The notes under the pieces are model-generated. The model had not been told where the DNA came from and ran no database searches. It saw only the letters and a list, made by a program, of their open reading frames with translations. Below are positions 4,910-51,925 of a DNA stretch of 64,000 nucleotides, in pieces. The first letter of the stretch is position 1. Each line of letters opens with the position of its first letter. The translations under genes and the position numbers were made by a program. The stretch lies in NCBI RefSeq assembly GCF_055900595.2, contig NZ_CM148325.1, one strand, 5' to 3'.

Positions 4910-5092
4910 ATGGGCAAAGCAACGTATACCGTGACCGTCACCAATAACAGTAATGGCGTTTCTGTCGATTATGAAACAGAGACGCCGATGACTTTGCTGG
5001 TGCCAGAAGTGGCGGCTGAAGTGATAAAAGATCTGGTGAATACCGTGCGTTCTTATGACACGGAAAACGAACATGATGTTTGTGGTTGGTAA
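4910..5092 (+). CDS. yoaG: Small protein YoaG
   Basis: 60-aa ORF MGKATYTVTVTNNSNGVSVDYETETPM starting 4 nt after yeaR stop. Confidence 0.8.
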   Translation: MGKATYTVTVTNNSNGVSVDYETETPMTLLVPEVAAEVIKDLVNTVRSYDTENEHDVCGW

Positions 5093-5239
5093 TTATCACT
5101 GATCGTAGATGGCGCAATTTCTGCGCCATCGCAAAAAAATCCTCCGTGATGCTTGTCACAAATCTTGCCCTCCTGATGTTGTGCTATGCTTTTTATCAGC
5201 GACTAACCCGCTAATGCAAAACAGATAAGTGAGGAAACA

Positions 5240-5488
5240 ATGGGCATTCTGTCATGGATTATTTTTGGGCTTATTGCCGGTATTCTGGCGAAGTGGATCA
5301 TGCCAGGTAAAGATGGTGGTGGATTCTTTATGACTATCCTGCTGGGGATAGTCGGTGCCGTAGTCGGCGGATGGATCAGCACGCTGTTTGGCTTTGGTAA
5401 AGTCGATGGCTTCAATTTTGGCAGCTTCGTGGTTGCCGTTATTGGTGCGATTGTCGTGCTGTTTATCTACAGAAAGATCAAAAGTTAA
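5240..5488 (+). CDS. yeaQ: GlsB/YeaQ/YmgE-family small membrane protein
   Basis: 82-aa ORF MGILSWIIFGLIAGILAKWIMPG with glycine-rich TM helices; RBS GAGGA. Confidence 0.85.
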   Translation: MGILSWIIFGLIAGILAKWIMPGKDGGGFFMTILLGIVGAVVGGWISTLFGFGKVDGFNFGSFVVAVIGAIVVLFIYRKIKS

Positions 5489-5502
5489 CGCGTAAATTGC
5501 AC

Positions 5503-5536
5503 AAAGGCTGCACACAGGCAGCCTTTGCTATTTTTT
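5503..5536 (+). terminator. Rho-independent terminator after yeaQ
   Basis: Hairpin aaaggctgcacacaggcagccttt followed by T6. Confidence 0.55.
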
Positions 5537-5546
5537 AGATGTGACG

Positions 5547-5621
5547 TTACCACCATCCCAACTCAGTGCCGAGAACGACAATAATCGCTACGCCCATCAT
5601 AATAATCGTTGTTTTTTTCAT
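5547..5621 (-). CDS. yoaJ: 24-aa small membrane protein YoaJ
   Basis: Manual translation MKKTTIIMMGVAIIVVLGTELGWW; below ORF-track size cut-off; matches recalled K-12 small protein. Confidence 0.6.
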   Translation of the reverse strand: MKKTTIIMMGVAIIVVLGTELGWW

Positions 5622-5623
5622 CT

Positions 5624-5722
5624 TTACGCTCCCGGGGCAGCATAGCCGCCAATAAAAAACCATGCTAAAAATACGACCGCTGTAATAAAGATTACAACCG
5701 GAAAAATAATACCGATTCGCAT
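5624..5722 (-). CDS. yoaK: 32-aa small membrane protein YoaK
   Basis: Manual translation MRIGIIFPVVIFITAVVFLAWFFIGGYAAPGA; stop lies 2 nt upstream of the yoaJ start. Confidence 0.6.
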   Translation of the reverse strand: MRIGIIFPVVIFITAVVFLAWFFIGGYAAPGA

Positions 5723-5754
5723 GTTATCACCAATCAAAAGGATGTGAATACGCC

Positions 5755-6780
5755 TCAGGAATGTAGCGCTGAATGCGCGACAAAAGGTGTTTTCTGTTTG
5801 TGTTTTTTCTCCTGATACATCGCGATATCGGCAGCATGCAGGGCGCTGTCTGCATCGGTCGTTTCAGGATCGACTTCTACTATGCCAAGACTGGCACCAG
5901 GATAATACAAATCAACATCACCTAAGTGATATTCTCCGCGTATTTGCTGTTGAATACGTTCTCGCAGCGATGGAATATCCGCATTCTCATTGTTCAGTGA
6001 AACAACCAAAAACTCATCACCGCCGAGACGACCAATAACTTCGCCATTTTGCTGGAGCGTATTAAGGCGCTCGCCAACCTGAATAAGAAACAGATCGCCA
6101 CTATTATGACCAAAACGATCATTGATTAATTTGAAGTTATCCAGATCGATAAATGCGATCATTATCTTATGGTTAAGATGCCTCGCAAGAGAAAACAGCG
6201 TCGTCAGGTTTTCAAAAATCGCCCGCCGATTCGGTAGCCCGGTTAACGAGTCGGTATACGATTGCGCAATCAGTGCGGCATTTGCTTCGCGCAGCTGTTC
6301 AACCAGCGCCTCTTTTTGAATATATTGTGCAATCAGTCCGGCGAATAGCTGTAAAACCTGTTCCGCGCGTTCACTCCACTGGCGCTTCTCACTGCTGGCG
6401 GCGCAAAGTGTGCCATAGAATGATCCATCCGGTAAGTGAATTGGCGTGCTCAGAAATGTGGTGATGCCAAGATTTCGTGCCGCAACACAGTCGCCCCAAC
6501 GGTCGGGGACTTCATCGCTGAAAAAGCAGTTTTCATCAATGGCGCGTTTGCATAACGAGTAATCCCACGAGACGGTAAAATTCTCCGGGATGTGCATTTT
6601 CTGGCTATTACGGGCAAACATTATATGCTGCAGGCGCGCTTCGACATCCACTTTGGTCAGGTAGGTTGACTCCATATCAGTGACCATTTCCAGCATCTCC
6701 AGAAGCTGTCGGACCAGACTTTCCAGTGACTGTTCTTTGGCAAGGGATTGCGAGACGCGGGCGATAATCTGATCTGACAC
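5755..6780 (-). CDS. dgcP: Diguanylate cyclase (GAF-GGDEF)
   Basis: ORF track 5755-6909 trimmed to GTG start at VSDQIIARVSQ to give 341 aa as recalled; intact RLGGDEF motif. Confidence 0.88.
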   Translation of the reverse strand: MSDQIIARVSQSLAKEQSLESLVRQLLEMLEMVTDMESTYLTKVDVEARLQHIMFARNSQKMHIPENFTVSWDYSLCKRAIDENCFFSDEVPDRWGDCVAARNLGITTFLSTPIHLPDGSFYGTLCAASSEKRQWSERAEQVLQLFAGLIAQYIQKEALVEQLREANAALIAQSYTDSLTGLPNRRAIFENLTTLFSLARHLNHKIMIAFIDLDNFKLINDRFGHNSGDLFLIQVGERLNTLQQNGEVIGRLGGDEFLVVSLNNENADIPSLRERIQQQIRGEYHLGDVDLYYPGASLGIVEVDPETTDADSALHAADIAMYQEKKHKQKTPFVAHSALHS

Positions 6781-10143: not shown

Positions 10144-10312
10144 CGTGGTTTCCTTGCCAAAAAATAATAAGCCTGCTTACTTTACGCTTGCTGCAGGAAG
10201 GAAGTAGAAAATCTTTACGTTTTTTGCATAAAAAATCAGGCGAACTGTCATCAAACTGCCATTTGTGCACGCTAACAATAACGTGAAAACAGCTATCTCC
10301 CCGGGGCATACT

Positions 10313-10417
10313 ATGAACGATCAAATGTTTGTCGAGACACTGATTATCACGTCATCGTTTTTTGCCATTGCTGTTGTGCTGGTTTTGTCCGTTCTGCTTA
10401 TTGAACGGACAGGCTAG
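10313..10417 (+). CDS. yoaI: 34-aa small membrane protein YoaI
   Basis: Manual translation [34 protein letters not shown]; stop TAG directly abuts the yeaK stop on the opposite strand. Confidence 0.55.
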
Positions 10418-24755: not shown

Positions 24756-25478
24756 TTAATCCTGCAACGCATAGGTTACGGTGGTGACTACGCGTACCGT
24801 TTTATTAATCGCCGTAGGATCATCTTCATCACTGCCACTGGCGAAGATCTGGAACACGCCTTGTGAGGCATCGCTAATTGACCCCACCTGGCTACCTGAG
24901 TCCGTTGCAAATTGTAATGCTGCGTTGCGTGCATCTTTGGTGGCGGCGGCAATCATCTCAGCGCGCAGTGCGCCAATACCATTAAAGCGATAGGCGACTT
25001 TGCTCTCAGCGATAGCGCCCTCCGTAGCGACTTGCAGTTCGTTTAATTTCGCGACGACTTTTTCGACAGCAGCAACATTATGGGTTTTTATCGTCACTGA
25101 CCCGTCTGCGTTATAGCGTGGCATTGTGGGATCATCTTTCAGATAAAAGGAATCTGTTCGCTTGCTTGTCCATTGGCCCAGGGTTATCTCTTTCTCGTTA
25201 ATCCCCTGAGCATTGAGTTCGGCAACAATTTTTTTCTGCGCGTCTTCCAGTTTCGGGAACAGTTCGCCGGGAATATTACCCTTAAAGTTAATCGCAATTG
25301 TTAATTCTGCCGTATCTGCGCGAACTTCTTTTTCAGAAAGCCCACGCACATTTACATAACGGTTATTGGTTTTCAAATGTTTAACACCATCGCCAACAAA
25401 ATAACCACAGGCGCTAATCCCCAGTCCGAGGACGATAGCGGCAATTAAAGAGGGGGCCTTATTCACTGATGACTCCAT
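24756..25478 (-). CDS. SIMPL/DUF541-domain periplasmic protein (YggE-like)
   Basis: 240-aa product MESSVNKAPSLIAAIVLGLGISACGYF...; the ORF-track 389-aa version is an artefactual upstream extension running into the IS200 flank; no counterpart between ansA and sppA in recalled K-12. Confidence 0.75.
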   Translation of the reverse strand: MESSVNKAPSLIAAIVLGLGISACGYFVGDGVKHLKTNNRYVNVRGLSEKEVRADTAELTIAINFKGNIPGELFPKLEDAQKKIVAELNAQGINEKEITLGQWTSKRTDSFYLKDDPTMPRYNADGSVTIKTHNVAAVEKVVAKLNELQVATEGAIAESKVAYRFNGIGALRAEMIAAATKDARNAALQFATDSGSQVGSISDASQGVFQIFASGSDEDDPTAINKTVRVVTTVTYALQD

Positions 25479-25539
25479 ATCAGATGCTAAATGAGCAAGG
25501 GAATGTAGTGGAGAGAGGGAGTGAAAGACAGTCCGATTC

Positions 25540-26250
25540 AGGAGTGTGGCCGACAGCATATCGGCCACATTTTTGTGCACAGAAAACCCCCAGCTAGGCT
25601 GGGGGTTCCGGAAAGCTTTCAGCTTTGAGCCAGTTATTAAAACCCCTTTTGATTTGTTAAAACACCTTGCGGTCTGGCAACTGCAAGTGTCAAACAAGAA
25701 ATCAAAAGGGGGTCCCAATGGGGGACGAAAAGAGCTTAGCGCACACCCGCTGGAACTGTAAATATCACATAGTTTTTGCGCCGAAATACCGAAGACTGGC
25801 GTTTTACGGAGAGAAGCGTAGGGCGATAGGCAGTATTTTGAGAAAGCTGTGTGAGTGGAAAAGCGTACGGATTCTGGAAGCAGAGTGCTGCGCAGATCAT
25901 ATCCATATGCTTGTGGAAATCCCACCCAAAATGAGCGTATCCGGCTTTATGGGATATCTGAAAGGGAAAAGCAGTCTGATGCTTTACGAGCAGTTTGGGG
26001 ATTTGAAATTCAAATACAGAAACAGGGAGTTCTGGTGCCGAGGGTACTATGTCGATACGGTGGGTAAGAACACGGCGAAGATACAGGACTACATAAAGCA
26101 CCAGCTTGAAGAGGATAAAATGGGGGAGCAGTTATCGATTCCATATCCGGGCAGCCCGTTTACGGGCCGTAAGTAACGAAGTTGAATGCAAATGTCAGAT
26201 CGTATGCGCCTGTTAGGGCGCGGCTGGTAACAGAGCCTTACAGGCGCATT
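25540..26250 (+). mobile_element. IS200 (IS200/IS605 family), about 0.7 kb, boundaries approximate
   Basis: Contains tnpA below; left end carries the characteristic perfect hairpin gtggccgacagcatatcggccac and a second stem cccccagctaggctggggg upstream of tnpA. Confidence 0.8.
25718..26176 (+). CDS. tnpA: IS200 Y1 (HuH) transposase TnpA
   Basis: MGDEKSLAHTRWNCKYHIVFAPKYRR...HIHMLVEIPPK...YIKHQLEEDK; HuH motif; near-identical to recalled IS200 TnpA. Confidence 0.92.
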   Translation: MGDEKSLAHTRWNCKYHIVFAPKYRRLAFYGEKRRAIGSILRKLCEWKSVRILEAECCADHIHMLVEIPPKMSVSGFMGYLKGKSSLMLYEQFGDLKFKYRNREFWCRGYYVDTVGKNTAKIQDYIKHQLEEDKMGEQLSIPYPGSPFTGRK

Positions 26251-43408: not shown

Positions 43409-44659
<1,251 letters not shown>

Positions 44660-50596: not shown

Positions 50597-51925
50597 CTGA
50601 TGAATCCCCTAATGATTTTTATCAAAATCATTAAGTTAAGGTAGATACACATCTTGTCATATGATCAAATGGTTTCGCCAAAAATCAATAATCAGACAAC
50701 AAAATGTGCGAACTCGATATTTTACACGACTCTCTTTACCAATTCTGCCCCGAATTACACTTAAAACGACTCAACAGCTTAACGTTGGCTTGCCACGCCT
50801 TACTTGACTGTAAAACTCTCACTCTTACCGAACTTGGCCGTAACCTGCCAACCAAAGCGAGAACAAAACATAACATCAAACGAATCGACCGATTGTTAGG
50901 TAATCGTCACCTCCACAAAGAGCGACTCGCTGTATACCGTTGGCATGCTAGCTTTATCTGTTCGGGCAATACGATGCCCATTGTACTTGTTGACTGGTCT
51001 GATATCCGTGAGCAAAAACGGCTTATGGTATTGCGAGCTTCAGTCGCACTACACGGTCGTTCTGTTACTCTTTATGAGAAAGCGTTCCCGCTTTCAGAGC
51101 AATGTTCAAAGAAAGCTCATGACCAATTTCTAGCCGACCTTGCGAGCATTCTACCGAGTAACACCACACCGCTCATTGTCAGTGATGCTGGCTTTAAAGT
51201 GCCATGGTATAAATCCGTTGAGAAGCTGGGTTGGTACTGGTTAAGTCGAGTAAGAGGAAAAGTACAATATGCAGACCTAGGAGCGGAAAACTGGAAACCT
51301 ATCAGCAACTTACATGATATGTCATCTAGTCACTCAAAGACTTTAGGCTATAAGAGGCTGACTAAAAGCAATCCAATCTCATGCCAAATTCTATTGTATA
51401 AATCTCGCTCTAAAGGCCGAAAAAATCAGCGCTCGACACGGACTCATTGTCACCACCCGTCACCTAAAATCTACTCAGCGTCGGCAAAGGAGCCATGGAT
51501 TCTAGCAACTAACTTACCTGTTGAAATTCGAACACCCAAACAACTTGTTAATATCTATTCGAAGCGAATGCAGATTGAAGAAACCTTCCGAGACTTGAAA
51601 AGTCCTGCCTACGGACTAGGCCTACGCCATAGCCGAACGAGCAGCTCAGAGCGTTTTGATATCATGCTGCTAATCGCCCTGATGCTTCAACTAACATGTT
51701 GGCTTGCGGGCGTTCATGCTCAGAAACAAGGTTGGGACAAGCACTTCCAGGCTAACACAGTCAGAAATCGAAACGTACTCTCAACAGTTCGCTTAGGCAT
51801 GGAAGTTTTGCGGCATTCTGGCTACACAATAACAAGGGAAGACTCACTCGTGGCTGCAACCCTGCTTACTCAAAATCTATTCACACATGGTTACGTTTTG
51901 GGGAAATTATGAGGGGATCTCTCAG
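50597..51925 (+). mobile_element. IS10 (IS4 family), complete 1329-bp copy
   Basis: Outside end CTGATGAATCCCCTAATGATTTT at 50597, inside end ...GGGGATCTCTCAG at 51925; perfect 9-bp target-site duplication CACCCAGTA at 50588-50596 and 51926-51934. Confidence 0.93.
50704..51912 (+). CDS. IS10 transposase
   Basis: 402-aa ORF MCELDILHDSLYQFCPELHLKRLNSLTLACHALLDCKTLTLTELGRNLPTKARTKHNIKRIDRLLGNRHL... matching recalled IS10/Tn10 transposase almost exactly. Confidence 0.95.
   Translation: MCELDILHDSLYQFCPELHLKRLNSLTLACHALLDCKTLTLTELGRNLPTKARTKHNIKRIDRLLGNRHLHKERLAVYRWHASFICSGNTMPIVLVDWSDIREQKRLMVLRASVALHGRSVTLYEKAFPLSEQCSKKAHDQFLADLASILPSNTTPLIVSDAGFKVPWYKSVEKLGWYWLSRVRGKVQYADLGAENWKPISNLHDMSSSHSKTLGYKRLTKSNPISCQILLYKSRSKGRKNQRSTRTHCHHPSPKIYSASAKEPWILATNLPVEIRTPKQLVNIYSKRMQIEETFRDLKSPAYGLGLRHSRTSSSERFDIMLLIALMLQLTCWLAGVHAQKQGWDKHFQANTVRNRNVLSTVRLGMEVLRHSGYTITREDSLVAATLLTQNLFTHGYVLGKL

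What the first reader, a model, noticed from the sequence alone, without database searches (positions are those of the whole stretch)
5547..5722. Two tiny membrane-protein genes (24 and 32 aa) invisible to the ORF track
Manual reading between yeaQ and dgcP recovers ORFs encoding MKKTTIIMMGVAIIVVLGTELGWW and MRIGIIFPVVIFITAVVFLAWFFIGGYAAPGA, matching the small proteins YoaJ and YoaK. A third, YoaI (34 aa), is at 10313-10417. This shows the ORF track's 60-aa floor hides real genes in this window.
Basis: partly seen in the sequence, partly recalled or inferred. Interest (0 to 1): 0.3.

Follow-up and report, generated by a model that had tools for sequence, protein, structure and literature searches.

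The report
Known small membrane genes yoaK, yoaJ
The two tiny reading frames are real: they are the already catalogued E. coli small inner-membrane protein genes yoaK (32 aa) and yoaJ (24 aa), conserved under purifying selection in related bacteria, so the finding is correct but ordinary.

Summary
Observation and interpretation both hold. On the minus strand, yoaK is at 5624-5722 and yoaJ at 5547-5621, 2 nt apart, between dgcP and yeaQ. yoaI is at 10313-10417 (+). All three proteins are identical to E. coli K-12 b4676, b4675 and b1788, pass NCBIfam equivalog cut-offs, and are annotated in RefSeq. The region is present in 5402 of 5426 complete E. coli genomes.

In 30 loci found through the neighbouring gene yeaQ (Escherichia, Citrobacter, Salmonella, Enterobacter, Leclercia), both frames are intact and keep their length. 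Changes fall mainly on third codon positions: pN/pS is 0.11 for yoaK and 0.29 for yoaJ, against 0.07 for yeaQ and 1.1-4.1 in the wrong frames.

The pair follows dgcP closely, and yoaJ's ribosome-binding site lies inside yoaK's last codons, which suggests translational coupling. Published work reports a dgcP-yoaK-yoaJ transcript, tagged YoaK protein, membrane-integral YoaJ and RseP cleavage. Their function is still unknown.

One side observation may be new. YoaK-family ORFs (never YoaJ) sit directly downstream of very divergent cI-type repressor genes in lambdoid phages and prophages. They are unannotated in the HK106, mEp234 and mEp506 records.

Novelty: already known. Interest: low.

The parts
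5624..5722 (-). yoaK, 32-aa single-pass small inner-membrane protein gene (ATG to TAA)
   Evidence: Identical to K-12 b4676. NCBIfam NF033821 scores 69.1 bits against a cut-off of 32. pN/pS is 0.11, with 13/7/30 variable sites at codon positions 1/2/3.
5547..5621 (-). yoaJ, 24-aa single-pass small inner-membrane protein gene (ATG to TAA)
   Evidence: Identical to K-12 b4675. NCBIfam NF011343 scores 60.4 bits against a cut-off of 54. pN/pS is 0.29, with 14/9/21 variable sites.
5629..5633 (-). GGGAG Shine-Dalgarno for yoaJ, inside the Pro-Gly-Ala codons that end yoaK
   Evidence: Read directly from the sequence. A CCGGG(A/G)GC.TAA junction, with 2, 0 or -1 nt between the genes, is kept in 30 loci.
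5727..5731 (-). GGTGA Shine-Dalgarno-like motif 4 nt upstream of the yoaK ATG
   Evidence: Read from the sequence. GGTGA or GGTGG is found at the same offset in most Escherichia, Enterobacter and some Citrobacter loci. It is weaker in several Citrobacter loci.
5502..5527 (.). G+C-rich stem-loop between the convergent yeaQ and yoaJ genes, a likely shared terminator
   Evidence: Terminator scan, + strand. On the minus strand the RNA forms the same 11-bp stem 19 nt after the yoaJ stop, but with a U-poor tail.
5755..6780 (-). dgcP (GAF-GGDEF diguanylate cyclase), upstream gene of the operon, with its stop 32 nt before the yoaK ATG
   Evidence: RNA-seq-based operon call yeaP-yoaK-yoaJ in PMC4620388.
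5240..5488 (+). yeaQ, the convergent neighbour used as an unbiased anchor to collect relatives
10313..10417 (+). yoaI, 34-aa small membrane protein gene named in the finding
   Evidence: inside the 50-aa GTG-extended ORF 10265..10417. Annotated. NF041475 scores 79.8 bits. Function described in PMC11429745.

Best explanation
Shown here. The two reading frames are the known E. coli genes yoaK and yoaJ. They are conserved as an adjacent pair of fixed length (32 or 33 aa, and 24 aa) under purifying selection across Escherichia, Citrobacter, Salmonella, Enterobacter and Leclercia. They almost always lie directly after the diguanylate cyclase gene dgcP and converge on yeaQ.

From the literature. They are transcribed with dgcP. 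YoaK protein is detectable from a chromosomal tag. YoaJ is an integral membrane protein with its N-terminus in the cytoplasm. Both can be cut by the intramembrane protease RseP in vitro.

Inferred. (1) yoaJ is translated by coupling to yoaK: its GGGAG ribosome-binding site lies inside yoaK's last three codons, and the genes are 2, 0, -1 or -4 nt apart. (2) Each product is one transmembrane helix with a basic N-terminus (MR- or MKK-) and a few C-terminal residues facing the periplasm. (3) Like the small membrane proteins that have been characterised (MgrB, AcrZ, MgtS, YoaI), they most probably bind and tune a larger inner-membrane protein rather than act alone. Strict co-occurrence in chromosomes suggests YoaK and YoaJ work together. 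The partner is unknown. I am about 0.97 sure they are real genes with these identities and about 0.45 sure of the accessory-subunit mechanism.
For: - **Identity.**. All 6 DNA differences from K-12 across yoaK-yoaJ are synonymous. The region is in 5402 of 5426 complete E. coli genomes.
- **Unbiased conservation test.** I collected 80 loci through YeaQ. Of these, 31 carry yoaK at the syntenic site, and 30 of the 31 have an intact yoaJ.
- **Coding signature.** pN/pS is 0.11 for yoaK and 0.29 for yoaJ, against 0.07 for yeaQ and 1.1-4.1 in the shifted frames.
- **Link to dgcP.** dgcP lies 34-58 nt upstream in 29 of the 30 loci with an intact pair, counting the window itself among the 30. It is absent from all 49 loci that lack yoaK. 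A second chromosomal lineage, picked up in IMG/VR prophage flanks and one metagenome contig, shows the same order of GAF-GGDEF gene, yoaK, yoaJ, with overlaps of -1 or -4 nt.
- **Literature.** Operon call (PMC4620388). YoaK immunoblot (10.1101/511675). YoaJ topology, membrane integration and co-immunoprecipitation with RseP (PMC4597795). RseP cleavage of both peptides in vitro (PMC10470546). YoaJ induced by diamide, as cited in PMC12542507.
Against: - No function or partner is known (PMC9769844), so the accessory-subunit mechanism rests on analogy.
- Salmonella arizonae keeps yoaK-yoaJ without dgcP, so the pair does not depend on dgcP.
- RseP cleavage results differ between assay formats. Both peptides are class II substrates, and neither is cut by chromosomally encoded RseP.
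- The pN/pS values are pooled pairwise counts on related sequences, not a tree-based estimate.
- Part of the conservation at the YoaK C-terminus (Pro-Gly-Ala) may come from the embedded yoaJ ribosome-binding site rather than from protein function.
- The primary papers (Hemm 2008 and 2010, Fontaine 2011) are not in the library, so I cite their results second-hand.
Confidence: 0.9

Rival explanations
1. The ORFs are chance reading frames in an intergenic or 3'-UTR stretch and make no functional product.
For: Short ORFs are abundant: 31 of at least 20 aa overlap 5000-6300. The local Pfam copy has no family for either peptide.
Against: The frames are intact with constant length in 30 of 31 syntenic loci across five genera. 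Variation falls mainly on third codon positions, and pN/pS is 0.11 and 0.29 against more than 1 in the other frames. Both peptides hit NCBIfam equivalog models. Tagged protein has been detected.
Confidence: 0.01
2. The conserved feature is mainly an RNA or translation-level element. It could be a dgcP 3'-UTR or terminator region, or ORFs whose translation matters but whose peptides do not.
For: The region is the 3' end of the dgcP transcript. A stable stem-loop follows yoaJ.
Against: Amino-acid sequence is constrained while synonymous sites are close to saturated (pS 0.60-0.66). An RNA-structure or pure-translation model does not predict that. No Rfam family matches the region. YoaK homologues persist in an unrelated transcript context, after phage repressor genes, with the same coding signature.
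Confidence: 0.03
3. YoaK and/or YoaJ are type I toxin-like hydrophobic peptides (in the manner of Hok, Ibs, Ldr or TisB) that damage the membrane when made.
For: They are very short single-helix hydrophobic peptides. RseP, which cleaves them in vitro, also degrades the toxin HokB. Homologues in prophage immunity regions lie beside hicAB-like toxin-antitoxin genes.
Against: No antisense RNA or convergent promoter was found. The genes are single-copy and sit in an operon behind a housekeeping-type signalling enzyme. YoaK is detectable at steady state in growing and stationary cells. Tagged YoaJ and YoaK were expressed from plasmids in the RseP studies I read, with no toxicity mentioned in those passages.
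Confidence: 0.05

Closest known systems
E. coli K-12 YoaK (b4676) and YoaJ (b4675), small membrane proteins of unknown function
   Same: The amino-acid sequences are identical. The gene order is the same: dgcP, yoaK, yoaJ, then convergent yeaQ. The NCBIfam equivalog models are the same.
   Different: Nothing of substance. There are six synonymous DNA differences, because the window comes from another E. coli lineage. That part of the window (5200-5800) is 100% identical to strain Z0117EC0005 and about 98% to K-12 lineages such as MC4100.
Characterised small inner-membrane regulators (MgrB-PhoQ, AcrZ-AcrB, MgtS-MgtA, YoaI-EnvZ)
   Same: One transmembrane helix, under 50 aa, stress- or stationary-phase-linked expression, encoded in enterobacterial core genomes. 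YoaI lies in the same window and activates EnvZ (PMC11429745).
   Different: There is no sequence similarity and no partner protein has been identified. YoaK and YoaJ come as a translationally coupled pair behind a c-di-GMP synthase gene. This is a working analogy, not a membership claim.
Genes carried in the lambda-type immunity operon downstream of cI (rexA/rexB position)
   Same: Phage YoaK-family ORFs occupy this slot: on the same strand as a cI-type repressor gene and 12-172 nt after it. No promoter or terminator consensus lies between them in HK106.
   Different: They have no homology to RexA, RexB or SieB. They are 31-34 aa rather than multi-helix or soluble proteins. No exclusion phenotype has been tested. 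There are no PADLOC or PHROG matches. The window's own yoaK is chromosomal and not in a prophage.

Membership tests
YoaK family small membrane protein (NCBIfam NF033821, equivalog) | Full-length match to the 32-position model above the curated cut-off of 32 bits | tested here: met
   69.1 bits, residues 1-32 on model positions 1-32.
YoaK family small membrane protein (NCBIfam NF033821, equivalog) | Family motif M-[RK]-x-G-x-x-F-P ... A ... W-F-x-x-G-G-Y-A-x-P within one uncharged hydrophobic span | tested here: met
   The motif is present in the window protein. It is invariant in the YeaQ-anchored loci, except for G25, A28 and P30, which are only nearly invariant family-wide. In the IMG/VR set, F7, P8, W21, F22, G26, Y27 and A28 were fixed by my search pattern, and position 25 was limited to a GRN codon. 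Only the anchored set is unbiased.
YoaK family small membrane protein (NCBIfam NF033821, equivalog) | Orthologous position in E. coli: between dgcP and yoaJ, convergent with yeaQ | tested here: met
Protein YoaJ (NCBIfam NF011343, equivalog) | Full-length match to the 24-position model above the cut-off of 54 bits | tested here: met
   60.4 bits, residues 1-24 on model positions 1-24. Identical to b4675.
Protein YoaJ (NCBIfam NF011343, equivalog) | Integral inner-membrane protein with N-in, C-out orientation | not testable with these tools
   The sequence fits: MKK, then an uncharged span, then ELGWW. The experimental support is from the literature only: PMC4597795 cites Fontaine 2011 for topology and shows alkali-resistant membrane association.
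Small membrane protein YoaI (NCBIfam NF041475, equivalog) | Full-length match above the cut-off of 45 bits, and position between yeaK and yeaL | tested here: met
   79.8 bits. Annotated at 10313-10417. Identical to b1788.
Expressed small proteins of E. coli (validated small proteome) | Protein product detected from the chromosomal locus | not testable with these tools
   Literature only. Chromosomally SPA-tagged YoaK was used as an immunoblot reference in 10.1101/511675. YoaJ induction by diamide is reported by Hemm 2010, as cited in PMC12542507.
Type I toxin-antitoxin small hydrophobic toxins (considered, not adopted) | A cis- or trans-encoded antisense RNA antitoxin, and toxicity on expression | tested here: inconclusive
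   There is no Rfam hit in the region and no convincing convergent promoter. Toxicity cannot be tested with these tools.
Known anti-phage defence or superinfection-exclusion proteins (considered for the phage-borne YoaK homologues) | Sequence match to a catalogued defence family | tested here: not met
   No PADLOC match at E up to 1. No significant PHROG match.

The most novel reading that the evidence does not exclude
YoaK-family peptides may be a mobile passenger of prophage immunity operons. A 31-34 aa ORF follows cI-type repressor genes of many unrelated immunity types in lambdoid phages and prophages. It is under purifying selection and is presumably made in lysogens from the repressor promoter. 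It would act on a conserved host inner-membrane target, either to exclude superinfecting phage or to remodel the lysogen's envelope. The chromosomal dgcP-yoaK-yoaJ cassette would then be the domesticated (or ancestral) version acting on the same target. If so, this gives the first functional handle on YoaK.
Probability: 0.2. Interest if true: 0.55.

Novelty: already known. Interest (0 to 1): 0.12.

Why it matters
For the scan, the main value is as a control. A reader working from raw sequence recovered three real genes under 60 aa, with exact coordinates, that a 60-aa ORF floor hides. No further annotated genes of this kind are in the window. Biologically, yoaK and yoaJ have been catalogued since the 2008-2011 small-protein surveys and still have no known function, so confirming them adds little. 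The context analysis adds three points. The chromosomal pair is strictly co-inherited and probably translationally coupled. It is tightly but not obligatorily linked to the c-di-GMP synthase gene dgcP. YoaK alone has relatives behind phage repressor genes. That last point suggests a concrete experiment on a protein that currently has no phenotype.

Tried and rejected
- The search for homologous proteins and the search for related loci reject proteins under 40 aa. I collected relatives through the neighbour YeaQ instead, which also avoids selecting for conservation of the small ORFs. I ran the 32-aa YoaK through the exhaustive representative search. YoaJ (24 aa) could not be searched that way.
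- **A wasted scan.** My first IMG/VR pattern had three extra Ns and found nothing. I tested the corrected pattern locally and re-ran it.
- **Databases with no hit.** The local Pfam copy has no YoaK or YoaJ family, although precomputed annotations list PF28021:YoaK. PHROGs, PADLOC and PDB gave nothing. Rfam has nothing at the locus.
- **Promoter scan.** The only sigma-70-like match near yoaK has its -10 hexamer overlapping the yoaK ATG. I rejected it as the yoaK promoter. Transcription from dgcP, or from inside dgcP, is more likely.
- **Literature not held.** Hemm 2008 and 2010, Fontaine 2011 and the EcoSal review are not in the library, so I cite them only through papers that cite them.
- **A false lead.** The 'YoaK' hits in a protein-language-model preprint are a GitHub user name.
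- **Not attempted.** I did not run AlphaFold on a YoaK-linker-YoaJ fusion. A shallow alignment of single helices would not be decisive.

Full report

Yes, and the coordinates are exact. On the minus strand an ATG at 5722 opens a 32-codon frame ending in TAA at 5624-5626 (MRIGIIFPVVIFITAVVFLAWFFIGGYAAPGA). Two bases later an ATG at 5621 opens a 24-codon frame ending in TAA at 5547-5549 (MKKTTIIMMGVAIIVVLGTELGWW). The third [37 protein letters not shown], is at 10313-10417 on the plus strand.

The mechanical ORF list shows them in their longest forms (38, 37 and 50 aa, from upstream ATG, TTG or GTG codons). All are below 60 aa. ORFs of this size are everywhere: 31 of at least 20 aa overlap 5000-6300. 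Their existence alone is therefore not evidence of a gene.

**2. What is it?**

Positions 5200-5800 of the window are 100% identical to E. coli strain Z0117EC0005 and about 98% identical to K-12 lineages. This region is present in 5402 of 5426 complete E. coli genomes. RefSeq annotates the two ORFs as yoaK and yoaJ, between dgcP (5755-6780, minus strand) and the convergent yeaQ (5240-5488, plus strand), and annotates yoaI between yeaK and yeaL.

The three proteins are identical to K-12 b4676, b4675 and b1788. All six DNA differences from K-12 across yoaK-yoaJ are synonymous. Each protein matches its NCBIfam equivalog model over its full length and above the curated cut-off: YoaK 69.1 against 32 bits, YoaJ 60.4 against 54, YoaI 79.8 against 45.

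**3.

The homology tools refuse queries this short. I therefore collected relatives through the neighbouring gene yeaQ. This does not select for conservation of the small ORFs. The search returned 80 loci, one per species.

- A yoaK homologue lies at the syntenic, convergent position in 31 of them: Escherichia, Citrobacter, Salmonella arizonae, Enterobacter, Leclercia and two metagenome-assembled genomes.
- It is absent from 49 others: Klebsiella, Raoultella, Pantoea, Erwinia, Yersinia, Serratia and more.
- In 30 of the 31, yoaJ follows intact. YoaK is 32 aa (33 in one locus) and YoaJ is always 24 aa.
- The exception is Citrobacter sedlakii, which has a one-base deletion in the A-run just after the yoaJ ATG.

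The substitution pattern is that of coding sequence:

| Sequence | Variable sites at codon positions 1/2/3 | Pooled pN/pS |
|---|---|---|
| yoaK | 13/7/30 | 0.11 |
| yoaJ | 14/9/21 | 0.29 |
| yeaQ, same loci | 21/4/73 | 0.07 |
| yoaK and yoaJ read in the two wrong frames | — | 1.1-4.1 |

These are pooled pairwise counts on related sequences, not tree-based estimates, but the contrast is large. The frames are conserved, so the finding survives its own test.

**4. Anatomy and likely expression.**

- dgcP ends 32 nt before the yoaK ATG. A DgcP orthologue lies 34-58 nt upstream of yoaK in 29 of the 30 loci with an intact pair, counting the window among the 30. It lies in none of the 49 loci without yoaK.
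- Salmonella arizonae and C. sedlakii have yoaK without dgcP. The link is therefore strong but not obligatory.
- A GGTGA motif sits 4 nt before the yoaK ATG.
- The yoaJ ribosome-binding site, GGGAG at 5629-5633, lies inside the Pro-Gly-Ala codons that end yoaK. The junction CCGGG(A/G)GC.TAA is kept, and the genes are separated by 2, 0 or -1 nt. In a second chromosomal lineage they overlap by 1 or 4 nt. I infer translational coupling from this; it is not shown.
- The only sigma-70-like match near yoaK overlaps its start codon and cannot serve it.
- An 11-bp G+C-rich stem-loop at 5502-5527 lies between yoaJ and yeaQ. It is a good terminator for yeaQ but has a U-poor tail in the yoaJ direction.
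- No Rfam family matches the locus.

**5. What the literature says.**

- An RNA-seq-based operon database uses yeaP(dgcP)-yoaK-yoaJ as its example of a newly recognised three-gene operon (PMC4620388).
- Chromosomally tagged YoaK is detectable by immunoblot and was used as a reference for a weakly expressed small protein (10.1101/511675).
- YoaJ is described as a type II (N-in, C-out) membrane protein, with topology confirmed by Fontaine et al. 2011. It is integral to the membrane and co-immunoprecipitates with RseP (PMC4597795).
- Purified RseP cleaves both YoaJ and YoaK in vitro. The in vivo results depend on the tag, and neither is cleaved by chromosomally encoded RseP (PMC10470546).
- YoaJ is reported to be induced by diamide (Hemm 2010, as cited in PMC12542507).
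- Their functions were still described as unknown in 2022 (PMC9769844).
- YoaI has since been shown to activate EnvZ-OmpR (PMC11429745).
- The primary small-protein papers are not held in the library.

**6. How it most likely works.**

Each peptide has a basic N-terminus (MR- or MKK-), one uncharged hydrophobic span, and a few C-terminal residues. For YoaK the tail is a conserved W-F-x-x-G-G-Y-A-x-P. For YoaJ it is G-T-x-x-G-W-W.

The best-supported reading is that they are single-helix inner-membrane peptides, made together from the dgcP transcript. By analogy with every characterised member of this size class, they probably bind and tune a larger membrane protein. Strict co-occurrence in chromosomes suggests that they act together. 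The partner is unknown and this step is inference, at about 0.45.

Three rivals are all much less likely, for the reasons listed under each: chance ORFs, a purely RNA-level element, and type I toxin-like peptides.

**7. A side observation that may be new.**

The exhaustive search with YoaK found only 25 representative clusters, so the family is narrow. Two distant members lie directly downstream of Peptidase_S24/HTH repressor genes in prophages. A third follows a GGDEF gene.

- **Phage records.** tblastn against phage genomes finds a YoaK-family ORF in HK106, mEp234, mEp506 and Klebsiella phage ST974-OXA48phi18.2. It carries no annotation in the three coliphages, and in the Klebsiella phage the corresponding CDS is labelled 'CI transcriptional regulator'.
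- **HK106.** The 32-codon ORF (MRIGIVFPILVFIVAMGFMAWFIIDGYATPSG) starts 105 nt after the cI stop and lies before hicAB-like genes. This is the slot that rexAB fills in lambda. No promoter or terminator consensus lies between cI and the ORF.
- **Family membership.** The phage ORFs pass the NCBIfam YoaK cut-off at 43.8-67.8 bits. PGAP names the prophage copy 'YoaK family small membrane protein' in 6 of 5426 E. coli genomes.
- **IMG/VR scan.** A pattern scan gave 91 matching stretches, of which I examined 80 loci.
  - 31 are the chromosomal arrangement of GAF-GGDEF gene, yoaK and yoaJ, caught at the edge of prophage predictions.
  - 49 are phage-type. Of these, 39 have a cI-type repressor immediately upstream. 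Most of the rest are at locus ends or unresolved.
- **Divergent repressors.** Many repressor pairs give no BLAST hit to each other. One pair is only 23% identical over 56 aa, yet its YoaK ORFs are identical.
- **Selection.** The phage ORFs show a coding signature, with pN/pS of 0.09-0.14 within groups.
- **YoaJ.** It is never present in the phage contexts.
- **Caveat.** The scan pattern fixes seven YoaK residues and restricts an eighth, so identity and invariance figures from that set are inflated.

I found no paper in the searchable library that links YoaK to prophages. There is no PADLOC, PHROG or PDB match. A gene in that slot is typically expressed in lysogens and often excludes other phages. 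That is a hypothesis for the family, at about 0.2, not a result.

**8. Verdict.**

The genes are already known and annotated, and their function remains open. These three are the only annotated genes under 60 aa in the near-identical RefSeq strain, and K-12 annotates no others in the matching region I examined, from chbR to leuE. Interest is low at 0.12. The only element worth following up is the cI-yoaK association in phages.

Noticed in passing
L086 2501-2599 (phage HK106, JQ086369.1 30467-30565 complement); also mEp234, mEp506, L083, L084, L087, and the phage-type loci among L091-L170: YoaK-family ORFs of 31-34 aa lie directly downstream of cI-type repressor genes of many unrelated immunity types in lambdoid phages and prophages. 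They are unannotated in HK106, mEp234 and mEp506, labelled 'CI transcriptional regulator' in a Klebsiella phage, and have no PHROG. They are under purifying selection, and YoaJ is never present with them.
   Followed up: yes
L014 3370-3385 (Citrobacter sedlakii NBRC 105722): yoaJ has a one-base deletion in the A-run right after its ATG (ATGAAAAAAC instead of ATGAAAAAAAC), which truncates the frame. This genome also lacks dgcP upstream of yoaK. It could be a sequencing error, a pseudogene, or a slippery homopolymer.
   Followed up: partly
L009 3311-3486 (Salmonella enterica subsp. arizonae): yoaK-yoaJ are intact but dgcP is missing. About 200 nt of unrelated intergenic DNA separates yoaK from the next gene, so in this lineage the pair must have its own promoter.
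   Followed up: partly
L094-L170 subset (31 IMG/VR loci, e.g. L128, L156): A second chromosomal lineage carries a GAF-GGDEF gene, then yoaK (33-34 aa), then yoaJ, with overlapping stop and start codons. It is not next to yeaQ. It recurs exactly at the edge of roughly 38-kb prophage predictions, so a frequent prophage insertion site lies beside it. I did not identify the host genus.
   Followed up: partly
window 5721-5748 (-): The only sigma-70-like promoter match near yoaK (TTCACA, 16-nt spacer, TAACAT, with an upstream TG) has its -10 hexamer overlapping the yoaK ATG. It cannot drive a normal yoaK mRNA.
   Followed up: no
window 24756-26176: Compared with K-12, this strain has an IS200/IS605 tnpA (25718-26176) with the STnc490 RNA (25585-25708, Rfam 146 bits) and a SIMPL-domain gene (24756-25466) between sppA and ansA. 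It lacks the K-12 ydjE-ydjL cluster between pncA and yeaC, and it lacks ynjI.
   Followed up: no
window 44468-44590 (-) and 50642-50711 (-): There are Rfam gathering-score hits to isrC (145 bits) and RNA-OUT (97 bits; RNA-OUT is the IS10 antisense RNA). The window loses register with strain Z0117EC0005 after about position 39.7 kb, which points to an insertion or deletion there.
   Followed up: no
public protein clusters P0001, P0002, P0004, P0016, P0024: Several database 'proteins' of 40-74 aa are YoaK fused by a frameshift to the yoaJ frame or to out-of-frame read-through. P0002, for example, is YoaK joined to YoaJ. They are probably assembly or sequencing errors around the G-run at the gene junction.
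   Followed up: no
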